Shown here one piece after another: positions 1 through 12,495 of a DNA stretch of 12,529 nucleotides (the first letter of the stretch is position 1; every line of letters starts with the position of its first letter). The stretch comes from a virus (taxonomy: Duplodnaviria > Heunggongvirae > Uroviricota > Caudoviricetes). The stretch is from the IMG/VR virus record IMGVR_UViG_2657244940_000007, positions 1 to 12,529 of that record; one strand, written 5' to 3'. The notes below the pieces were generated by a model. The model made no database searches. It was not told the origin of the DNA and saw nothing but the letters and a program-made list of their open reading frames with translations. A program made the position numbers and the translations under genes.

Positions 1-419
1 TTTACACGCTCCAGCAGGATGCTTTGCTCATGGTAATAGTCCATAAGAAGAGTAACATCCTCTTTATCAAGCTTACTTAATTCGCTGAAGTAGGATTTAA
101 ACACTTTATCAGTCTGGTTTAATGCAATCTGTAAGCGAGGCCCCCCTAATGATTTGACATTAATGGCAAAAGGCTCGCCAACAAAATGCTCCGAATTTTC
201 GTCAAAGCCAATATATCTCGTTTTATCAAGAAAAGTGAGAGCGCGATGGTTATTAGCGATTTCATATGCAAACATTGTTCTGATACTGTCCCTCTCAGCC
301 TCCATGCTTATATCATCACGATGATTTGTATAAAATATATTTCCAACAAAGAGAACCATGGCAAGAATCACTGAACTTGCCTCCCAGTTAATATTTTTTA
401 ATCGTCGCTTAGTAAACAT
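1..419 (-). CDS. Partial CDS (5' end only; continues beyond window start): hypothetical protein with N-terminal hydrophobic anchor, carried in AT-rich accessory DNA at the P2 Z/fun-equivalent position
   Basis: My own reverse-complement translation from ATG at 419 gives 139 codons with no stop: MFTKRRLKNINWEASSVILAMVLFVGNIFYTNHRDDISMEAERDSIRTMFAYEIANNHRALTFLDKTRYIGFDENSEHFVGEPFAINVKSLGGPRLQIALNQTDKVFKSYFSELSKLDKEDVTLLMDYYHEQSILLERV... AAGGTG Shine-Dalgarno-like motif a few nt upstream of the ATG. One ~17-residue hydrophobic stretch (SSVILAMVLFVGNIFY). An uninterrupted frame this long in AT-rich DNA is unlikely by chance. Not in the supplied ORF track, presumably because it is open at the window edge. 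No family recognised. Confidence 0.6.
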   Translation of the reverse strand, partial: MFTKRRLKNINWEASSVILAMVLFVGNIFYTNHRDDISMEAERDSIRTMFAYEIANNHRALTFLDKTRYIGFDENSEHFVGEPFAINVKSLGGPRLQIALNQTDKVFKSYFSELSKLDKEDVTLLMDYYHEQSILLERV

Positions 420-640
420 ACCGCACCTTAATTATCAAAAATATTCCTTCAGTGTTATCTGGTTAGCCTAAACCAAGTCATTAAAGTCTGCAGGATATCA
501 TATACATAAAATGTATTGATTAGAATTTGCACTAATAAAATAATGCTTTACTAAAATCTACTCCAGACACAGAGCGGCCTGTCAGATTAGGCTTTACTCT
601 GTGCCATAGATATGTTTGCTCACTCCAGAGATCATACAAC

Positions 641-1168
641 TTATTGCGGCATTTCCGGCCATTCAGGATTTGCAGGATCCACACGACTGACCAGAACGCT
701 GTAACGCTCCCATGCATCCAGTCGGCTACGCTCCTCATCTGTTGCCATGTTCAGTCTGACCGCGCGCTCCAGCGGCAAAATCACGGATTCAGCATCTGCA
801 AGAAGTCTGGCTTTCCGGTTTTCTGCCTGCTGCAGCAATTCCTCTGCCGTATAAATGCGTTTAATCACTTTGCCGTCCTTAAACATCCAGCCCCCTGAAA
901 TGTCCGCCCGTCGGTTAGCAGTAATATCCGCCACTTCAACAACACTTAATCCATCCGGTCTGATAGCTGTCACATCCTTTTCCACATAGCGGATAATATT
1001 ATCTTTGTCGTACGCTATTTTTATCGTGTCATCAGCAAAATACTTTTGTTCTTCGTACCAGTTCTTACCATCTTCTGAAAAAAACCAGACAACATCAAAA
1101 CCCTTTGTCAATTGATATTGTTCAACCGTTTTTGGATTACCCGCCGTAATATTTTTTAAATGCTGCAT
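641..1168 (-). CDS. G: Phage tail fibre assembly protein (P2 gpG-like chaperone)
   Basis: 175 aa, same length as P2 gpG. Begins MQHLKNI and ends ...[14 protein letters not shown], as I recall for P2 G / Tfa family. Lies 3 nt downstream of the tail fibre gene on the same strand. Confidence 0.85.
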
Positions 1169-1171
1169 AAA

Positions 1172-3931
1172 TTATACCTGCGCCACGTTATACCATGTCC
1201 CGTTAATGTATTTCTGAACCGGCCTGTAATATACACCACCAATGTTATCGGCAGAGTTTGAGCCGGTATCCTGAACAATAATGCCGGAATATACACACCC
1301 GGACGGTGCCTGATGTGTCCATGTCATGCCATTGTTCGCAGGTTTGTATGTGGCAGCACCACCAAGCCGGATATCCCGGACATAGCGGGAATCAAAGTTA
1401 CCGTAATCCGAGGGATTAACACGCCCCGTAATATTTATGGTTTTATTACTTTGAATACTTCCCGAGACAAAGCGCATAATATGGACGCTATTAGCATAAA
1501 CATCCAGATTACCATCACCATTTTGTTTAAAGCCCGTGTCATTATCACCCAAAACAATCGAATTACCGCCAAGAGCACTGGATGTTCCTATACCCAGAGC
1601 ACCATTCAATTGACCACCAGATAACGGCAGTGCACCGACATCTCCCGCTGTAGGTTTTCGCGTTGTGGTATAAAACTCAGACCAGTCAGCCTCGAATCCG
1701 TAACCGTCACGAGCAGAACGATAAAAAATACCGCCGTTCTTATAATTAACGCGGAACTGGGCGGCGGGACAACTTCCTTCACCGATATTAAAATGAAGAA
1801 TTAACGTTGATGCCCCACCAGTAGTTGCGTTATAGGCTCCGCTACTCCAGTTCCACCCAACGGCTTTATCATTCGCAACGGTGTCTCCTGTTTTTCCTGA
1901 AGCAAATGCACCAATATTTTTCGGCGTCAAGTTAATATCTGATGTTCCATCAAACGAAACGTTATTAATTTTACGGGCTGTTTTCAGCTTTGTTGCTGTC
2001 GCCGCATTGCCGGACAGTTCACCAGAAAGGCCAGCACTGAATGTCTGTTTCGCGCCCCATGTCTGGGCTTCGTCAATGATTGGTACTCGTCTTGCTGTGA
2101 TCGTGCGGCTTCCCGGATTTCCTGAAATACGCACCATAAAAAAGCGGTAGTTCGCTTTACTTACAGTGCTGCGCCATACATGCATTGAGCGCCCCGTACC
2201 GGAATCATCACTCGGACCAACTGCGATGTTTATCAGGTTGCCATCAATGACGCCCCAGTCCATACCGTCGGGAATGTTGGTCATGTTATCAAGCCGCACG
2301 GTTATCAGACTGCCCGGCACAAAATCGTAGGTCTGCCAGTCCAGACTGGATAGTTTTGCCACTGCGCCACCGATGCCCAGATTCAGAGGCAACGAAAAGG
2401 AGTTATATACTTCTCGCCATTCGGTCCATTTGCTCCCGGCGTAGACGCGCTCAAAAGTGCGTCCCTGTGTGGTTTCTGATTTCCCTGTGGTTGTGTAACG
2501 CTGCCAGACAGACACACCATCAAAACGTCTGATTACTTCCAGTATCCCAAGTAGTGTCGCGCCAACGGTGTCCAGCATCGGACCGTTTGTTGCCTTTCCT
2601 GTAACACTGTAAATACCGGGGTCGGTTAGAACATTTAAATCACCTTCGTAATAACGACTCTCTGACTGATGACCGACTCTTAACCACGGTTCCCACTGCG
2701 GATTTGATGCATCCCAGCTTGCCGCAAGACAGCGGACATACATATTTCCACGGCGAGTGGTATAACGTTGCGTTCTTCCATAATTTCCGCCTTCGAGGAT
2801 CTCAAGCATCCCCTGAGCAAAGCCGCCTTCCTCTGGATAATTGCGTTCATATGAAGCTATAGCTGAGCTACTGTTACGCCATAAACCAAGATGCTCGGCG
2901 GCTCCAAGCGTATTCAGGTCTATAGTCGTACTCAAAGGGCGGGTAGCAGATTGAGTGTGACGCCATACGCCCCACGGACCATCAGTGCCATTCCACCTAT
3001 TGGCGAGTTTACGCATGTATACATTGCCGTCTCTCGTGGTAAAGCGTTGCGTACCTGCAAAATTGCCGGCAGCAAAAACCTCAAGCACACCGACAGCATT
3101 ATCTTCCGGGAAATTTTTCTCCAGTGTTGCGTTGGTGGATGTTGCTTTAGACCAGATACCTGAATAAGCCTTAACAGGACCAAACGTATTCAGATCAGCA
3201 TCAAGCGGCATTTCGCCATTGTTTTTCATAAACGTCAGGCTGGTAACGCCAACATTGTCCAGAAAAGCTGATTTATCCTGGATATCTGCACCGTTCTGAT
3301 TTTTCGCCAGACGTGAATTTGCGTTGTCATTCGCAGCCTTGACCGCTTTTGGCGTTGCCGCCAGCTTTTCACTGGTGCTGTTTGTTGCACTGCTTAACTG
3401 AGTAAAACCTTTTTCTGTCAGCGTGGCGTCAGGATGGCGGCGGGACTGCTCATGCTCTGCGATTTTGTCATCGACGTAATCCTGCGTAGCCATCACTGTG
3501 CTGGCATCAATACTCAGCTCAACGGACGCCACGTTGCTGAGAATAATAACCATGCGGCAGGTCTGCGCACGTCCGGAGCCTTCAGCCAGTTCTGGCTTAT
3601 AGCTTTCTGCCATGTTGGATACCGCAATCAGTGTTCCGGCATCGTCATACAGACCAAGCTCACGCATCCAGAAGCCGCCCACTTCTGGCGGAACAACCAG
3701 TTCAGCCACAATATAGTTTTTATTCTTATTATCCACACTGACTTTATTCAGAGCGTGACGCCAGACCTCATGCACCAGTTTCGTCTGACCGGCATCCGGC
3801 ACCGGTAATTTGCCATTACCGTCACCCACGGCCATTGCAGACAGGTTTACTTTTTTCCCGCCGGGGACAGTGGCGGCAGCCAGCTTTGCGGCTCCGGCAG
3901 TAGTGATAACGGTTTTAAATTTCGTGCTCAT
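1172..3931 (-). CDS. H: Phage tail fibre protein; P2 gpH-like N-terminal domain with a divergent, repeat-containing C-terminal receptor-binding region
   Basis: 919 aa. N-terminus (MSTKFKTVITTAGAAKLAAATVPGGKKVNLSAMAVGDGNG...) matches the conserved P2 H baseplate-attachment region as I recall it. Middle has three ~55-aa tandem repeats with a G.LE..(x)G..G.TQR[FY]TTR.GN.Y.R core. C-terminus resembles lambda Stf / T4 gp37-type tips. P2 H is 669 aa by recollection, so this is a longer mosaic. Confidence 0.9.
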   Translation of the reverse strand: MSTKFKTVITTAGAAKLAAATVPGGKKVNLSAMAVGDGNGKLPVPDAGQTKLVHEVWRHALNKVSVDNKNKNYIVAELVVPPEVGGFWMRELGLYDDAGTLIAVSNMAESYKPELAEGSGRAQTCRMVIILSNVASVELSIDASTVMATQDYVDDKIAEHEQSRRHPDATLTEKGFTQLSSATNSTSEKLAATPKAVKAANDNANSRLAKNQNGADIQDKSAFLDNVGVTSLTFMKNNGEMPLDADLNTFGPVKAYSGIWSKATSTNATLEKNFPEDNAVGVLEVFAAGNFAGTQRFTTRDGNVYMRKLANRWNGTDGPWGVWRHTQSATRPLSTTIDLNTLGAAEHLGLWRNSSSAIASYERNYPEEGGFAQGMLEILEGGNYGRTQRYTTRRGNMYVRCLAASWDASNPQWEPWLRVGHQSESRYYEGDLNVLTDPGIYSVTGKATNGPMLDTVGATLLGILEVIRRFDGVSVWQRYTTTGKSETTQGRTFERVYAGSKWTEWREVYNSFSLPLNLGIGGAVAKLSSLDWQTYDFVPGSLITVRLDNMTNIPDGMDWGVIDGNLINIAVGPSDDSGTGRSMHVWRSTVSKANYRFFMVRISGNPGSRTITARRVPIIDEAQTWGAKQTFSAGLSGELSGNAATATKLKTARKINNVSFDGTSDINLTPKNIGAFASGKTGDTVANDKAVGWNWSSGAYNATTGGASTLILHFNIGEGSCPAAQFRVNYKNGGIFYRSARDGYGFEADWSEFYTTTRKPTAGDVGALPLSGGQLNGALGIGTSSALGGNSIVLGDNDTGFKQNGDGNLDVYANSVHIMRFVSGSIQSNKTINITGRVNPSDYGNFDSRYVRDIRLGGAATYKPANNGMTWTHQAPSGCVYSGIIVQDTGSNSADNIGGVYYRPVQKYINGTWYNVAQV

Positions 3932-3941
3932 TGTTTCTCAC

Positions 3942-4472
3942 TTATCCGGGATAAACAGTAATAACATCACCATCACAGACCACACCGCCTGTATACAGAT
4001 AGCCGGGAATGTCCTGGATAATGTTCAGACCGATAAGGTGGCGACTTGCGGGTTTGGCATCGGCAATCAGCCGTTCCATTTCCAGATACATCTCCTCCGT
4101 GATGCCGCTTTCCAGCACACCGATATCAAGGCGAAAGGTGCCGGGCGGGTCGTTTGTCTCCCACCATTCCTTTACGTTAATGAGATAGCCGAGCGGCTCC
4201 ACCACACGCCGGATTGCGCCTATAGTGCCTTTATGACAGTGGATGAAATAGGCATCGCGAATAACGGCGCGTTTTGTCGCTTCCGGCCACTTTTCATCCC
4301 ACCTGTCGACCGAAAACGCCCATGCCAGCCACGGCAGCAAATTTGCCGGGCAGGTGTCCGGGTTCCACTGCTCACGAATCCTGACCGGCGTTTTTTCAAT
4401 TTCCGCACAGGCTTTTGCGGCAGCAACTTCAAGCGGTGATGAGCCGGTCGGCAGCAGTCGCGAATCACTCAT
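3942..4472 (-). CDS. I: Baseplate assembly protein I (P2 gpI-like)
   Basis: 176 aa, same as P2 gpI; begins MSDSRLLPTGSSPLEVAAAKACAEIEKTP..., ends ...DVITVYPG. Synteny J-I-H-G. Confidence 0.9.
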   Translation of the reverse strand: MSDSRLLPTGSSPLEVAAAKACAEIEKTPVRIREQWNPDTCPANLLPWLAWAFSVDRWDEKWPEATKRAVIRDAYFIHCHKGTIGAIRRVVEPLGYLINVKEWWETNDPPGTFRLDIGVLESGITEEMYLEMERLIADAKPASRHLIGLNIIQDIPGYLYTGGVVCDGDVITVYPG

Positions 4473-5372
4473 CCGAGCCTCCGGTCACGACGCGGTATTC
4501 GGTGCAGAAAGACGCCTGCGTACTGTTGAGCACGATGTCGGCCAGTGGTGCGGCCAGTTCGACACGCTGCACGCCTTCCACATGCAAAGCGGCATAAATG
4601 GCAGACAGACGGATGTCGCGCCCCAGCCGGTGCTGTGCCGTGATGTATGCTTCCAGTTTTTTCACGGCGGCCGCGCGGATGGGTTCACTTTCGGGACCAG
4701 GGTAAAGGTAAAGCGTGGCGTTTATCTGGTATTCAACAATGGCGGCAGACTGCACGGTCACGCGGTCGGCCACCGGTCTGACGTCCTCGCCATTCAGGGC
4801 GTTACGCACCACCGCCAGCAGGTCTTCGGATGCGACACCGTTATTCTCACGTGACAGCACAGAGATGGTGACGCAGGCCGGAGACGGACTGGTGACAGAG
4901 ATATCCGCGACACGCCCGTCAGCACTGCGGCCATGATACTGATAGGCACCCACCGACCCGGCGACGCTTAAACCTTCAAACGCCTGCTGAATACGCAGAC
5001 GATAATCGGTATCAGATTCCATCACTGCCGGTGTCGGCGGGATAGTCGAATCATCTGCCGGGGTGATAGTCAGACGCGTGGTGTTGTAATTGGCACCAAT
5101 CACATCAAGGTCATTACCCGCGGCACAGGCCAGCATCACCGCCCGTGCGGCCTCATTCACACGCTGACGCCAGATAAGCTCACGATAAGCATTTTCCTCC
5201 AGCAATTTGACGAGAGGCTCGGATTCCAGCGTCAGGGTACGGCGACCGCCTCCTGCTGGTCTTCCGGGTAAAGGGAAATCAGTGTCGCCTTGCGTTCGGC
5301 GAGAATGGTTTCAAAGTCCAGCTCCTCGACCACATCCGGTGCGGGTAGCTGGTTCAGGTCGATAATCGGCAT
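4465..5372 (-). pseudogene. J: Baseplate assembly protein J (P2 gpJ-like) interrupted by an apparent single-base frameshift near 5238..5244
   Basis: ATG at 5372 translates MPIIDLNQLPAPDVVEELDFETILAERKATLISLYPEDQQEAVAVP then TGA at 5232..5234. The rest of J (RTLTLESEPLVKLLEENAYRELIW... to GGSDE) continues in the adjacent frame and is the 4465..5205 ORF in the track, which begins at TTG. Combined length ~302 aa equals intact P2 gpJ. Read directly from the sequence on the minus strand: ...gcg gtc gcc gta ccc tga; one extra C (gcc cgt acc ctg) would restore ...AVARTLTLE... Confidence 0.65.
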
Positions 5373-5376
5373 GGTT

Positions 5377-5724
5377 TCAACTCACAGGGATGGTTAACGA
5401 AAGTGGCTGGCCGGTGTCGTTGTGCTGGCCGGTTAACGTGACCGTCATTCGCCCGTCAAAACTGCGCTCAGTGGTGACGGATGACAGGGTGACGCGGGGT
5501 TCCCATTTCAGCACCGCCATGTAACAGGCGACCTTAATCTGCAACTCAAGCGCCGGGGTCTGCGGCTGGTCAATCATTGACGCCAGCAACGAGCCGTAAT
5601 CACGACGCATCACCCGCGAGCCGACCGGTGTGCGCAGGATATCGCCGATACTCTGGCTGATATGCTCAAGGTCAGTGACAGTCAGGCCATCACTGCAATT
5701 CATTCCGAGATAACGCGCTGTCAT
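5377..5724 (-). CDS. W: Baseplate assembly protein W (P2 gpW-like)
   Basis: 115 aa, same as P2 gpW; MTARYLGMNCSDGLTVTDLEHISQSIGDILRTPVGSRVMRRDYGS... Four-base ATGA overlap with the V stop. Confidence 0.9.
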   Translation of the reverse strand: MTARYLGMNCSDGLTVTDLEHISQSIGDILRTPVGSRVMRRDYGSLLASMIDQPQTPALELQIKVACYMAVLKWEPRVTLSSVTTERSFDGRMTVTLTGQHNDTGQPLSLTIPVS

Positions 5725-6356
5725 AGAGGGCTCCCGGTTGTGCCGCCGCTGTCGCCGGGGTGTTTATGGGTATGCAGTACCTTACCATTTGATGAGAGTT
5801 CACCGCCGGTGTGTTCAATGTTGCCGCGCATCGTCCCGCCCTTCTGTACTTCCAGCGTGCCGGTAATCAGCCTGTTGGTGCAGACCACCTCCGGTGTGTC
5901 CAGGGTGATGCGAGTTGACGCTTTCACCATGACCACCGGCACCGTGGCGATAACAGAATCAGAAGCCGTCACGCTGGCCGTTTTAATTCCGCTTACCGTC
6001 AGTGCACTGGTTTCAGGTTCATACTCAATCACCGCCCCGTCAGGGAAACGGATGTACAGGGCATCCGCCGACGCAGACGGCGCGGGGTTATCACCGGAAT
6101 AAATCCCCGGCAGAACAAACGCCGTGTCGAGTTCGCCGCCCACGGACAGAATCAGCACCTGCTCCCCCACCGAAGGTGCCCACCATGTGCGTGAACGTCC
6201 GGCACGATGAGTCAGCCACTGAAGCCAGTCGGTGCACATGCCGCCGGTCTGCACACGGCAGCGACCGGCATTAAGGTCGGTTTCGACGATAATGCCGGTG
6301 CGAATCATGTTGCGCAGTGCGCGCGCGAGTTCCTGAATATTTGCGAGAGTGTTCAT
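5721..6356 (-). CDS. V: Baseplate central spike protein V (P2 gpV-like)
   Basis: 211 aa, same as P2 gpV; MNTLANIQELARALRNMIRTGIIVETDLNAGRCRVQTGG..., C-terminal HTHKHPGDSGGTTGSPL. Confidence 0.9.
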   Translation of the reverse strand: MNTLANIQELARALRNMIRTGIIVETDLNAGRCRVQTGGMCTDWLQWLTHRAGRSRTWWAPSVGEQVLILSVGGELDTAFVLPGIYSGDNPAPSASADALYIRFPDGAVIEYEPETSALTVSGIKTASVTASDSVIATVPVVMVKASTRITLDTPEVVCTNRLITGTLEVQKGGTMRGNIEHTGGELSSNGKVLHTHKHPGDSGGTTGSPL

Positions 6357-6422
6357 AACGGGAAGGATGCCGCCGGGTCATACCGTCGGCAATGTGACGA
6401 TGAGGTGTCGGGAATGGCACAA
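6357..6422 (-). promoter_or_regulatory. Probable position of the Ogr-dependent late promoter P_V, assigned by synteny only
   Basis: 66-nt S-V intergenic gap, where P2 has late promoter P_V. The only dyad I see is TGT-N10-ACA at 6405..6420, which does not match the TGT-N12-ACA spacing I recall for Ogr/Delta sites. Element not verified. Confidence 0.25.
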
Positions 6423-6875
6423 CTAACGGTCAAGGTGAGCCTGGATAATCTCTTCAATCATCTGCACATCCTCACCGGTAAAGCCGAGCAGAGGACGCGC
6501 CGGATAATCAATCTTCTTACCGTCTTTCCGGTTTTCTTCCGACAGACCGAACTGATGCACACTGGCGATTTTCGGTGACTTTCCGCCGTAAAACTCCATT
6601 GAGGCCTGTTCAGGGCTGGCGCGGATATGCAAAAAACGACTGGTGATAAGTTTCGCAAACATTTTTCGCTTAACGCGACCGGTCTTTTTTCTGGCGCTCT
6701 GCTGCTGACGTGGCGCGTAGGGTGTGCCGTCCGGGGCTTTCTGTGCCATCACCCGACGCTGCTGACTCTGCCGCAGACGCTTCGCCAGTTCGGCACTCAG
6801 TCGCCGACGCCCTGACGGTGACAGCGATTCAATCAGTCCGGTCAGCCGGTCTTCAAAACGCTTAAACTCATTCAT
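6423..6875 (-). CDS. S: Tail completion protein S (P2 gpS-like)
   Basis: 150 aa, same as P2 gpS; MNEFKRFEDRLTGLIESLSPSGRRRLSAELAKRLRQSQQRRV... Confidence 0.9.
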   Translation of the reverse strand: MNEFKRFEDRLTGLIESLSPSGRRRLSAELAKRLRQSQQRRVMAQKAPDGTPYAPRQQQSARKKTGRVKRKMFAKLITSRFLHIRASPEQASMEFYGGKSPKIASVHQFGLSEENRKDGKKIDYPARPLLGFTGEDVQMIEEIIQAHLDR

Positions 6876-9077: not shown

Positions 9078-9281
9078 TTACTCCCACAGATTGACAGTTT
9101 CAGCCACGGGCGCGGTCTGAACGTCGGGCAGTTCGACGGCGGTGCCGTGCGGCAGCACCGCACCCAGTTCAGCCAGTCCCGGATTTGCGGCGAGCACGGT
9201 CTCAACCACGCCCTCAGTGCGCCCGTAATACCGGACACAAATGGCGTCGAGCGTGTCGCCCTGTAGCGCAAAGGTCTTCAT
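9078..9281 (-). CDS. X: Tail protein X (P2 gpX-like)
   Basis: Taken from the internal Met (MKTFALQGDTLDAICVRYYGRTEGVVETVLAANPGLAELGAVLPHGTAVELPDVQTAPVAETVNLWE, 67 aa = P2 gpX), not the 90-aa track ORF, whose 5' extension overlaps the preceding gene. The ATG at 9281..9279 overlaps the upstream TGA as TGATG. Confidence 0.8.
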   Translation of the reverse strand: MKTFALQGDTLDAICVRYYGRTEGVVETVLAANPGLAELGAVLPHGTAVELPDVQTAPVAETVNLWE

Positions 9282-9532
9282 CAGATTTGACTCACGATGC
9301 AGCGCGGCTTGTCCTGGATACGCGCCACCGCCCAGCGCATATCCCGCCACAGCTCATCAATGGTGCTGTCTATGCTGTCGGCCTTTTTGTCGCCTTTCGC
9401 ACTGGCATCCACGCCGCGATAACGCTCATAAAGCGACGCGGTCGCCATCGCACACACGGCGCGCCCGTAGTAAAAAACTTTGATGCTTTCACCGTCGATG
9501 TCGTCCGCCGGGACGTCCGCCAGACGAATAAC
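9281..9532 (-). pseudogene. L: 3'-terminal remnant (~83 codons) of phage capsid-completion gene L, fused in frame to the truncated treF
   Basis: C-terminal part of the 470-aa track ORF (…[81 protein letters not shown]) matches the end of P2 gpL as I recall it. Position immediately upstream of X fits P2 order L-X. No intact L N-terminus and no M, N, O, P or Q genes follow. Confidence 0.7.
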
Positions 9533-10693
9533 ATCGCGACGGGCACTGGCCTTCTGGCGGAACAGTGCTTCTGTCTCTTTCTCGCCTTTCAGCGCCGAGA
9601 TGTTGGCGATGGCGCTCTCCAGTTTAAACAGGAAGGCATTCAGATCGATGGGGATGAACTGGGTGGTACGAATGCTCGCCAGACGACCAGTATCACGCAG
9701 CCAACGGGAAGAGTAATCCCAACCGGAGGCCGCCCCCGCACGTAAATCGCGGTACACCTCGTTAGGCGGGCGACCAGAATGTTTCGCGGTTTCAACGTCC
9801 TCAAGCCAGGATTCGTCACGCGGCGTGTCGCGATCGTCCCAGTAACGGTTGAGCAGCGAGCCGTCCGGCATCCGCACAACATGGCGATAGGCCTGATTAG
9901 GGATCAACGATTCTGCACCGTCCATCCAGAAGGCATATTCCATTTTCAGGTGGTCGAGATAGCGGCGCGCGCCGCGTACACCATCTTCTTCAAACAACTC
10001 CACCATCAGCGCAAAAACCGGTGGTTGCGAGCGGCTCAAATAATAGGTGCGGTTGCCGTTGGGGATGTGGCCGTAGTTTTCGATCATCCAGGCGAAGTTA
10101 TCGGCCATGCATTTCAGCAAATCTTCCCGACCACTTTCCGCCAGCCCCAGCATGGTGAAATAGGAATCCCAATAGTAGGTTTCGCTAAAACGGCCGCCCG
10201 GGACAATATATGACTGCGGCAGCGCCAGCAGAGAAGACCACGGAATGTGATCCTGTGGTTCACGGGTTAGCACCGGCCACAGCTGGTCGATATGCTCTTT
10301 CAGGGAATTTTGCGGGTCCGATACATACTCGCTGGAGTAGACCTCCGGCAGCCAGAAGTGGTTTTCAACAAACTTGCGCAAGTCAAAATCACGATGACGG
10401 CGCACTTTACGGTAGCGGATTAAAATATCCAGCGGGTCCATTTTGGGTGCGCAGTCGGGAAAGGTTTTACTGTCGGGGAAAATTTTCGCCGACTGAACAT
10501 GCTCGAACAGTTCGAGATAGCGATCGGCAGGCGTCAGCGCATCAGAGGCGGGCAGCCCTTCAATCATCTCGGGTTCCGGTTCTGCCTCGATCATCTCATC
10601 CAGTTTTAATTCATACGGGTCCAGCTCATAGCAGAGATCGACCTCGATCATCAGTTCGTCTGGATTAGGGTTTTGAATTTTCTGATTGAGCAT
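9533..10693 (-). pseudogene. treF: Cytoplasmic trehalase gene treF, 5' portion only (codons 1 to ~387 of ~549), truncated by fusion to prophage DNA
   Basis: N-terminus [70 protein letters not shown]... matches E. coli TreF through ...[13 protein letters not shown], then switches to phage-L sequence instead of the expected AVNRYLWDDENG... GGAGG Shine-Dalgarno ~9 nt upstream of ATG 10693. Divergent from yhjA as in K-12. Confidence 0.85.
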
Positions 10694-11097: not shown

Positions 11098-12495
11098 ATG
11101 AAAATGGTCTCACGTATTACCGCGATCGGCCTGGCTGGCGTCGCGATTTGCTATTTAGGGTTATCTGGTTATGTGTGGTACCACGATAATAAACGCAGTA
11201 AACAGGCCGATGTTCAGGCATCTGCTGTCAGTGAAAATAATAAGGTTTTAGGCTTTCTCCGCGAAAAAGGATGCGATTATTGCCATACGCCTTCGGCAGA
11301 ATTACCTGCCTATTATTATATTCCCGGCGCGAAACAGTTGATGGATTACGACATAAAGCTTGGATATAAATCTTTTAACCTCGAGGCCGTGCGTGCGGCT
11401 CTGCTGGCTAATAAACCCGTTTCGCAAAGCGATCTGAATAAGATTGAATGGGTGATGCAGTATGAAACTATGCCGCCAACGCGTTATACCGCGCTACACT
11501 GGGCGGGTAAGGTGAGTGATGAAGAGCGGGCGGAAATACTGGCCTGGATTGCAAAACAGCGCGCGGAATATTACGCCAGCAATGATACTGCTCCGGAGCA
11601 TCGCAATGAACCGGTGCAGCCCATCCCGCAAAAACTGCCTACCGATGCGCAAAAAGTGGCGTTGGGTTTTGCGCTGTATCACGATCCCCGTTTATCGGCT
11701 GATAGCACCATTTCATGCGCTCATTGCCATGCGTTGAATGCGGGGGGCGTCGATGGCAGAAAAACATCGATTGGTGTTGGTGGCGCAGTTGGGCCGATTA
11801 ACGCGCCGACGGTATTTAACTCAGTATTTAACGTTGAGCAGTTCTGGGATGGTCGTGCGGCAACATTGCAGGATCAGGCTGGTGGACCGCCGTTGAACCC
11901 GATTGAAATGGCGTCGAAATCCTGGGACGAAATTATTGCTAAGCTGGAAAAAGATCCGCAGCTTAAAGCGCAGTTCCTCGAAGTCTATCCGCAAGGTTTC
12001 AGTGGCGAAAATATTACTGATGCCATTGCTGAATTTGAGAAAACATTAATTACGCCGGATTCCCCATTTGATAGATGGTTGCGTGGAGATGAGAATGCTC
12101 TGACGGCGCAACAGAAAAAAGGCTATCAATTATTTAAAGATAATAAATGTGCAACTTGTCATGGTGGTATTATTCTCGGCGGACGTTCCTTTGAACCGTT
12201 GGGGCTGAAAAAAGACTTTAACTTTGGTGAAATTACGGCGGCGGATATTGGTCGTATGAATGTTACTAAAGAAGAGCGTGATAAATTGCGTCAGAAAGTA
12301 CCCGGTTTACGTAACGTTGCTTTAACGGCACCGTACTTCCATCGCGGTGACGTGCCGACGCTGGACGGGGCGGTGAAACTGATGCTGCGCTATCAGGTAG
12401 GCAAAGAGCTGCCGCAGGAGGATGTGGATGATATCGTCGCTTTCCTGCACAGTCTGAACGGGGTTTACACGCCGTATATGCAGGATAAACAATAA
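11098..12495 (+). CDS. yhjA: Triheme cytochrome c peroxidase (YhjA/Ccp), membrane-anchored
   Basis: 465 aa. Three c-type haem motifs: CDYCH (res 59-63), CAHCH (207-211), CATCH (351-355). N-terminal hydrophobic anchor (ITAIGLAGVAICYLGLSGYVW). GAGGGAAG Shine-Dalgarno 6-9 nt upstream of the ATG. Matches E. coli YhjA from memory. Confidence 0.95.
   Translation: MKMVSRITAIGLAGVAICYLGLSGYVWYHDNKRSKQADVQASAVSENNKVLGFLREKGCDYCHTPSAELPAYYYIPGAKQLMDYDIKLGYKSFNLEAVRAALLANKPVSQSDLNKIEWVMQYETMPPTRYTALHWAGKVSDEERAEILAWIAKQRAEYYASNDTAPEHRNEPVQPIPQKLPTDAQKVALGFALYHDPRLSADSTISCAHCHALNAGGVDGRKTSIGVGGAVGPINAPTVFNSVFNVEQFWDGRAATLQDQAGGPPLNPIEMASKSWDEIIAKLEKDPQLKAQFLEVYPQGFSGENITDAIAEFEKTLITPDSPFDRWLRGDENALTAQQKKGYQLFKDNKCATCHGGIILGGRSFEPLGLKKDFNFGEITAADIGRMNVTKEERDKLRQKVPGLRNVALTAPYFHRGDVPTLDGAVKLMLRYQVGKELPQEDVDDIVAFLHSLNGVYTPYMQDKQ

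What the first reader, a model, noticed from the sequence alone, without database searches (positions are those of the whole stretch)
1172..3124. Mosaic tail fibre: P2-type anchor, three tandem ~55-aa repeats, and a non-P2 receptor-binding tip with matched chaperone
H is 919 aa against 669 for P2 H. Residues ~270-510 (nt 2402..3124) hold three tandem repeats: NFPEDNAVGVLEVFAAGNFAGTQRFTTRDGNVYMRKL..., NYPEEGGFAQGMLEILEGGNYGRTQRYTTRRGNMYVRCL..., and GATLLGILEVIRRFDGVSVWQRYTTTGKSETTQGRTFERVY... The C-terminal ~250 residues look like a lambda Stf / T4 gp37-type tip. This points to horizontal exchange of the host-range determinant together with its assembly chaperone G.
Basis: partly seen in the sequence, partly recalled or inferred. 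Interest (0 to 1): 0.4.

Follow-up and report, generated by a model that had tools for sequence, protein, structure and literature searches.

The report
Known L-413C-type P2 phage tail fibre
This is an ordinary tail-fibre gene of a P2-like E. coli prophage, already present almost letter for letter in sequenced phages; its internal repeats are ~90-residue "knob" domains like those of Pseudomonas R-type pyocin fibres.

Summary
H (1172..3931, minus strand) is 919 aa and does contain tandem repeats. The unit is ~90 aa (period 92 aa = 276 nt), not ~55 aa. Copies A (240-328) and B (332-421) are clearly related. Copy C (425-511) is a distant copy that only profile comparison detects. A fourth domain, D (522-617), shares the predicted fold but has no sequence similarity to the others.

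The mosaic reading is right and already published for this type of H: Garcia et al. 2008 on L-413C gpH, as summarised in PMC7460101. H is 99.9% identical to H of Peduovirus P24E6b, D8, 12W and PhiR44_1.

"Non-P2 tip" is only partly right. Residues 770-919 align colinearly with P2 H, G is 74% identical to P2 G, and there is no similarity to the lambda Stf C-terminus. Residues ~857-901, however, are a second Peduovirus tip allele. That allele co-varies perfectly with the G allele in 10 phages, which supports the "matched chaperone" idea on a fine scale.

Verdict: low interest, already known.

The parts
1172..3931 (-). Gene H, tail fibre, 919 aa, intact ORF
   Evidence: ORF list. 99.9% identical to H of Peduovirus P24E6b, D8, 12W and PhiR44_1, and 77% identical to L-413C H.
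3479..3931 (-). H residues 1-151: P2-type tail-collar / baseplate anchor domain
   Evidence: Pfam PF12571, E 3.1e-57. Residues 1-207 are 84% identical to P2 H. DNA similarity to P2 ends at window 3326.
3299..3424 (-). H residues 170-211: Phage_fiber_2 repeat, the site of the proximal recombination boundary
   Evidence: Pfam PF03406, E 1.1e-20. Also matches Mu S residues 110-176.
2948..3214 (-). Knob domain A (H residues 240-328)
2669..2938 (-). Knob domain B (H residues 332-421), a tandem duplicate of A
   Evidence: Distant relatives have A-C-D without B.
2399..2659 (-). Knob domain C (H residues 425-511), a distant copy
   Evidence: hhalign A vs C probability 91%, P = 1.3e-7. Shares the motif DLN..G.LEV..QRYT..R..W.EW.
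2081..2368 (-). Domain D (H residues 522-617): fourth knob-like fold with no sequence similarity to A-C
1628..1918 (-). H residues 672-768: segment shared with Mu S' and P1 S (Pfam gp37_C region)
   Evidence: PDB 8ju3 residues 321-417, domain E 3.6e-48. 78-84% identical to Mu and P1. Pfam gp37_C 23.9 bits.
1385..1624 (-). H residues 770-849: distal shaft, homologous to P2 H and T2-type gp37
   Evidence: Colinear with P2 H from residue 472. DNA 81% identical to P2 over 1488-1577. 43-45% identical to T-even gp37.
1175..1384 (-). H residues 850-919: tip, Peduovirus allele II (variable core about 857-901; conserved end RPVQKYINGTWYNVAQV)
   Evidence: Matches the Mu S tip 5yvq and the phiTE short fibre 9cuy. 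Allele table. The module shared with fiAA91-ss, P22H4 and P2DC1 starts about residue 845.
641..1168 (-). Gene G, tail fibre assembly chaperone (Tfa), allele II
   Evidence: Pfam Caudo_TAP, E 3e-34. 74% identical to P2 G. 92-100% identical to G of phages with the same tip allele. C-terminal half 36% identical to lambda Tfa.

Best explanation
H is the receptor-binding tail fibre of a P2-like (Peduovirus) prophage, of the long L-413C type. From N- to C-terminus it has these parts:
- a P2-type anchor that docks on the baseplate;
- a Phage_fiber_2 linker;
- four globular knob domains in tandem. Three are recognisable by sequence and are homologous to Knob2 of R-type pyocin fibres. A and B are a lineage-specific duplication;
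- a shaft segment shared with Mu S' and P1 S;
- a distal shaft shared with P2 H and T2-type gp37;
- a ~70-residue tip.

The following steps are inferred by analogy with Mu and the pyocins, not shown here. G (a Tfa chaperone) binds the tip through its variable N-terminal domain and trimerises through its conserved C-terminal helices. The homotrimer therefore folds starting from the C-terminal end. The tip, and probably one or more knobs, then bind LPS sugars.

The gene is a patchwork built by recombination at conserved linker motifs. The last ~75 codons of H travel together with G as one cassette within the P2 family.
For: - Gene order V-W-J-I-H-G, with 91% DNA identity to P2 up to H codon ~201.
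- Pfam domains on H and G.
- H is 99.9% identical to H in five phage records. It aligns over its full length with L-413C H: anchor and shaft 97-100% identical, knobs 44-70%, tip 41%.
- Repeat statistics.
- A profile of the repeat unit hits the R1 and R2 pyocin fibres 6cl5, 6cl6 and 6ct8 on Knob2, E 4.8e-9 to 4.7e-7.
- NCBI names many homologues 'pyocin knob domain-containing protein'.
- Tip and G alleles co-vary in 10 of 10 phages. Between the two types, the G N-terminal domain is 68-72% identical and the C-terminal domain 78-89%. This fits the modular Tfa model described in PMC9608196.
- L-413C gpH binds Y. pestis cells, its receptor is the LPS core GlcNAc, and its four-region mosaic structure is published (PMC7460101).
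Against: - The structures are monomer predictions of moderate confidence (pTM 0.43 for the four-domain model). The trimeric knob arrangement was not modelled.
- No experiment shows that these knobs bind a receptor. In pyocins that role is itself inferred from sequence diversity and ligand mimics.
- The ten H/G pairs are phylogenetically related, so the correlation (r = 0.97) overstates the independent evidence.
- In this window the prophage looks defective: J is frameshifted and the head module is cut off. This copy of the fibre may therefore never be assembled into a virion.
Confidence: 0.85

Rival explanations
1. One reading: the C-terminal ~250 residues and G were imported together from outside the P2 family (a lambda Stf or T4 gp37 type), replacing the P2 tip and chaperone.
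For: Marginal Pfam gp37_C hit at 679-754. 43-45% identity of residues 775-882 to T2-type gp37. G DNA is only 77% identical to P2, against 91% for the neighbouring genes. Protein I is 93% identical to P2 I, against 74% for G.
Against: Residues 770-919 are colinear with P2 H, and the last 17 residues differ at one position. G aligns with P2 G over all 175 residues without gaps, at 74% identity. There is no similarity to the lambda Stf C-terminus. The same tip-plus-G allele occurs in other Peduoviruses that have short, P2-like H proteins: fiAA91-ss, P22H4 and P2DC1.
Confidence: 0.1
2. The knob array only lengthens and stiffens the fibre and nucleates trimer folding. Receptor specificity lies entirely in the C-terminal tip.
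For: Buth et al. note that knob-like domains, with their multiple hydrophobic cores, probably help trimer folding. Classical P2-family work places specificity at the C-terminus. Short H proteins without the knob block are functional (P2, fiAA91-ss).
Against: Knobs A and C are the most divergent parts of otherwise near-identical long H proteins: 44-45% identity between this H and L-413C H, against 97-100% in the flanking segments. That is the pattern expected of a surface under host-range selection. In pyocins, Knob2 diversity tracks the killing spectrum.
Confidence: 0.35
3. The 'repeats' are chance or compositional similarity and not real domains.
For: Copy C is not significant in pairwise alignment (z about 2).
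Against: A vs B z = 29.6. Profile-profile P = 1.3e-7 for A vs C. The units have the same predicted strand pattern. They show independent homology to a solved domain.
Confidence: 0.01

Closest known systems
gpH of Yersinia phage L-413C and of Peduovirus P24E6b, D8, 12W and PhiR44_1
   Same: Same length class (913-919 aa), same domain order and same operon position. 99.9% identical to H of the four E. coli phages. 77% identical to L-413C H, with anchor and shaft 97-100%. The four-region mosaic structure of L-413C gpH was described by Garcia et al. 2008, as summarised in PMC7460101.
   Different: Compared with L-413C, knobs A and C are only 44-45% identical, and the tip and G are the other allele (type II rather than the P2-like type I).
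gpH and gpG of phage P2
   Same: Anchor 84% identical. Distal 150 residues colinear. Conserved C-terminal end. G 74% identical. Same gene order.
   Different: P2 H lacks the whole knob block and the Mu S'-like segment. It carries ~68 extra residues in the distal shaft, and it has tip allele I.
R1 and R2 pyocin tail fibres of Pseudomonas aeruginosa (PDB 6CL5, 6CL6, 6CU2)
   Different: Pyocins have two knobs; this protein has four. The pyocin C-terminus is a lectin-like beta-sandwich on an iron-binding shaft, whereas here the distal end is a Mu S / P2 H-type tip.
Phage Mu S/S' fibre with its chaperone U (PDB 8JU3, 5YVQ), and P1 S
   Same: Residues 672-768 are about 80% identical to Mu S'. The tip, residues 836-918, matches the Mu S tip that was crystallised in 5YVQ (the entry from which the TfaMu structure comes). 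G belongs to the same Caudo_TAP family.
   Different: No invertible segment and no alternative S'/U' pair is present in this window. The Mu fibre has a different anchor and no four-knob block.

Membership tests
Peduovirus (P2-family) tail fibre gpH | N-terminal tail-collar fibre domain followed by a Phage_fiber_2 repeat | tested here: met
   PF12571 E 3.1e-57 and PF03406 E 1.1e-20. 84% identical to P2 H residues 1-207.
Peduovirus (P2-family) tail fibre gpH | Position in the V-W-J-I-H-G late operon, directly followed by the chaperone gene | tested here: met
   I is at 3942..4472 (TIGR01634, E 1e-63) and G at 641..1168. DNA is colinear with P2, L-413C and P24E6b.
Peduovirus (P2-family) tail fibre gpH | C-terminal end homologous to P2 H | tested here: met
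   Residues 770-919 against P2 472-669, E 8e-32; the last 17 residues differ at one position. The core, residues 857-901, is a different allele.
Pyocin knob domain (R1/R2 pyocin fibre Knob1/Knob2) | Sequence homology to the solved knob domains | tested here: met
   A profile of units A, B and C hits 6cl5, 6cl6 and 6ct8 at E 4.8e-9, 1.6e-8 and 4.7e-7 across the whole unit. By construct numbering the match falls on Knob2.
Pyocin knob domain (R1/R2 pyocin fibre Knob1/Knob2) | Antiparallel 5-6-stranded beta-sheet fold of ~85 residues | tested here: met
Pyocin knob domain (R1/R2 pyocin fibre Knob1/Knob2) | Trimeric arrangement with the beta-sheets buried on the three-fold axis | not testable with these tools
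   Only monomer predictions were available.
T4 gp37 C-terminal region (Pfam gp37_C, gp37_trimer) | Score above the Pfam gathering threshold | tested here: inconclusive
   gp37_C scores 23.9 bits against a cut-off of 22.5 (just passes). gp37_trimer scores 17.4 against 21.7 (fails). T2-type gp37 is 43-45% identical over residues 775-882.
Lambda Stf side tail fibre tip | Sequence similarity of the C-terminal region to lambda Stf (orf-314) | tested here: not met
   Best BLASTP E-value 1.8.
Tail fibre assembly protein (Tfa, Caudo_TAP: lambda Tfa, Mu U, P2 G) | Caudo_TAP domain, a conserved C-terminal helical part and a variable N-terminal part matched to the fibre tip | tested here: met
   PF02413 E 3e-34. 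36% identical to the lambda Tfa C-terminal half, E 2e-13. The N-terminal domain co-varies with the tip allele. Physical binding was not tested.

The most novel reading that the evidence does not exclude
The four-knob block may be an independent, exchangeable host-range cassette rather than a spacer. It would act as a second, lateral receptor-binding site that works together with the tip, as proposed for pyocin Knob2 plus the lectin domain. Three observations fit this. The block has sharp boundaries of near-identity on both sides. Its outer knobs diverge to 44-45% between otherwise identical fibres. The same block occurs at 58% identity in a protein that its source record names the large distal tail fibre subunit of Shigella phage JK23 (P0061). 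If true, host range in this fibre would be set combinatorially by two cassettes, the knobs and the tip plus G.
Probability: 0.35. Interest if true: 0.35.

Novelty: already known. Interest (0 to 1): 0.12.

Why it matters
The value is practical rather than conceptual. L-413C-type fibres are used for plague diagnostics (PMC7460101), and pyocins are retargeted by exchanging their tail fibres for phage receptor-binding proteins (PMC11464564). Three results from this work help the design of such chimeras:
- the non-P2 middle of H is a row of pyocin-type knob domains, for which Pfam has no model;
- the recombination boundaries lie at about residues 205, 240, 620, 770 and 845;
- tip allele II needs G allele II.

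None of this changes the established picture of mosaic tail-fibre evolution.

Tried and rejected
- BLASTP of H against itself returned only the identity hit. I replaced it with segment-wise Smith-Waterman against shuffles.
- An HMM built from units A and B finds copy C only weakly (1.1 bits). Profile-profile comparison was needed.
- NCBIfam has no model that matches H. Pfam has none that matches the repeat units.
- I tested whether D is a fourth sequence repeat. It is not by sequence and is similar only in fold.
- I tested the lambda Stf comparison and rejected it.
- Full-text searches for the 8JU3 paper found nothing usable. Three literature or paper queries failed because a term was too short.
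- I considered a Mu/P1-style invertible alternative fibre. No second S'/U'-like pair was seen downstream of G among the ORFs of at least 60 aa in window 1-640. The search for inverted repeats that would settle this was not run.

Full report
**What is in the window**

The window carries the late tail region of a P2-like prophage on the minus strand. The genes in order are lysis genes, tail-completion genes, V, W, J, I (3942..4472), H (1172..3931, 919 aa) and G (641..1168, 175 aa). DNA from window 1 to 6430 is 99.86% identical to Peduovirus P24E6b. It is 91% identical to P2 from V up to H codon ~201 (window 3326). There the similarity to P2 stops, and it resumes at 77% over G and the last codons of H.

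**Checking the observation**

H is 919 aa and P2 H is 669 aa.

- Units A (240-328) and B (332-421) align over ~80 residues. The score is 180 against 26.6 +/- 5.2 for shuffled sequence, z = 29.6.
- Profiles built from homologues give P = 4.5e-26 for A against B.
- A 17-nt DNA direct repeat 276 nt apart marks the start of both units.
- Copy C (425-511) is not significant pairwise (z about 2). Profile-profile comparison supports it: A vs C probability 91%, P = 1.3e-7 over 77 columns.
- A joint alignment of the units shows a common motif: DLN..G, xP, G.LEV, QRYT, R, W..W.
- The next segment, D (522-617), has no sequence similarity to A, B or C.

**What the repeats are**

Pfam and NCBIfam have no model for this region. 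Two independent lines identify the units as knob domains.

- A profile of units A, B and C, searched against all PDB sequences, hits only the R1 and R2 pyocin tail fibres (6cl5, 6cl6, 6ct8/6cu2). E-values are 4.8e-9 to 4.7e-7 and the match spans the whole unit. By construct numbering it falls on Knob2, with a weak second match on Knob1.
- An AlphaFold2 model of H 229-640 (26-sequence alignment, mean pLDDT 76.9) shows four compact six-stranded beta domains.
- Phi11 gp45, phage K gp144 and T4 gp34 are among the proteins that Buth et al. 2018 list as knob-like (PMC6116203).
- NCBI already labels many fragments of this protein family "pyocin knob domain-containing protein".
- Distant relatives in Citrobacter and Atlantibacter have the order A-C-D. 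The A/B pair is therefore a later tandem duplication.
- A protein that its source record names the large distal tail fibre subunit of Shigella phage JK23 carries the block A-B-C-D at 58% identity.

**The C-terminal third**

- Residues 672-768 are about 80% identical to Mu S' (PDB 8ju3) and to P1 S. Pfam gp37_C just passes its threshold there (23.9 bits against 22.5). gp37_trimer fails.
- Residues 775-882 are 43-45% identical to T2-type gp37.
- Residues 770-919 align colinearly with P2 H 472-669 (E 8e-32). P2 has ~68 extra residues in this stretch, and the last 17 residues differ at one position.
- The tip also matches the Mu S tip (5yvq) and the short tail fibre of Pectobacterium phage phiTE (9cuy).
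- The lambda Stf C-terminus shows no similarity (best E 1.8).

The distal end is therefore not foreign to the P2 family. Only its core, about residues 857-901, is of another type.

**Is the chaperone matched to the tip?**

G is a Caudo_TAP protein. It is 74% identical to P2 G over its whole length. Its C-terminal half is 36% identical to lambda Tfa.

I compared ten Peduovirus H/G pairs. They fall into two groups:

| Group | Members | Tip allele | G allele | G identity within group |
|---|---|---|---|---|
| 1 | P2, L-413C, pro147, P24B2, YpM22 | I | I | 91-95% |
| 2 | this window, P24E6b, fiAA91-ss, P22H4, P2DC1 | II | II | 92-100% |

- Between the groups the tips are 35-38% identical and G is 72-78% identical. 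The G N-terminal domain is 68-72% and the C-terminal domain 78-89%.
- The pairing is independent of the anchor allele and of whether the knob block is present.
- At DNA level the shared cassette starts near H codon 845, at the conserved DSRYVRD motif, and runs through G.
- This fits the published modular Tfa model: a variable N-terminal domain binds the fibre tip and a conserved C-terminal helical domain trimerises (PMC9608196, citing the Mu study).

It is an allele exchange within the P2 family covering ~75 codons of H plus G, not an import of a 250-residue foreign tip.

**How it most likely works**

- Shown here: the domain order, the homologies and the linkage of the tip with G.
- Inferred from the Mu, P2 and pyocin literature: H forms a homotrimer anchored to the baseplate by residues 1-151. 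G binds and trimerises the C-terminal end so that folding proceeds from the tip. The tip, and probably some of the knobs, bind LPS core sugars.
- Supporting literature: the receptor of L-413C is the LPS outer-core GlcNAc, and its gpH binds Y. pestis cells directly (PMC7460101).
- An indirect argument for receptor contact by the knobs: between this H and L-413C H, the anchor, Mu-like segment and distal shaft are 97-100% identical. Knobs A and C are 44-45% identical, and B and D are 70%. This resembles the pyocin case, where Knob2 diversity tracks killing spectrum.
- The rival view is that the knobs only add length and help folding. It remains open; I put it at about 0.35.

**Comparison with what is known, and novelty**

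- The protein is 99.9% identical to the annotated tail fibres of Peduovirus P24E6b and of Escherichia phages D8, 12W and PhiR44_1.
- The four-region mosaic nature of L-413C-type gpH is already in the literature (Garcia et al. 2008, as summarised in PMC7460101): a P2-like N-terminal 207 residues, a P2-like C-terminal 137 residues, and a mosaic non-P2 middle.
- Related work on P2-like coliphages maps host-range determinants to hypervariable C-terminal regions of H (PMC5285337).
- Domain-level exchange of tail-fibre segments among P2, Mu, P1, lambda and T-even phages is a textbook observation (my own knowledge of the field, not a tool result).

The finding is correct in outline but ordinary. What this analysis adds is modest: the identity of the repeats as pyocin-type knobs, the correct unit length and number, the probable fourth knob, and the precise extent of the tip-plus-G cassette.

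**Caveat on function in this genome**

The prophage here looks defective, or the sequence carries errors.

- Gene J has a 1-nt deletion in a C-run, at window ~5241-5242, relative to P24E6b (908 of 909 nt identical). This shifts the frame at about codon 44.
- At window ~9526 the phage sequence ends inside the head-completion gene L and is joined to the interior of chromosomal treF. The result is a 470-aa hybrid ORF.
- None of 5,426 complete E. coli genomes contains that junction.

H and G are themselves intact.

Noticed in passing
window ~5241-5242 (gene J, about 4465..5373, minus strand): The baseplate gene J has a 1-nt deletion in a C-run (CCC to CC) relative to Peduovirus P24E6b, which is otherwise 908/909 identical. 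The frame shifts at about codon 44, and the ORF list shows only a 246-aa remnant. This is either a pseudogene or a sequencing error.
   Followed up: partly
window ~9526/9527; hybrid ORF 9281..10693 (minus strand): Phage DNA ends inside the head-completion gene (P2 L homologue) and is joined in frame to the interior of chromosomal treF; yhjA follows at 11098..12495. None of 5,426 complete E. coli genomes spans this junction. It is a strain-specific deletion or rearrangement that removed the phage head module, or an assembly chimera.
   Followed up: partly
window 1..640: A low-GC stretch (38-39%) lies downstream of G, in the slot where P2 carries the non-essential gene fun(Z). In P24E6b a hypothetical protein is annotated here, and the window start cuts it.
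   Followed up: no
P0061 (protein named large distal tail fibre subunit of Shigella phage JK23), residues 82-552: This protein carries the same A-B-C-D knob block at 58% identity. The source record's name suggests the block also occurs in a gp37-type distal fibre outside the P2 family; the phage's classification was not checked here.
   Followed up: partly
P0103 and P0105 (Atlantibacter and relatives): Distant homologues with the knob order A-C-D end in a peptidase S74 (intramolecular chaperone) domain (PF13884) instead of a Tfa-dependent tip. The knob block therefore combines with both kinds of fibre-folding system.
   Followed up: no
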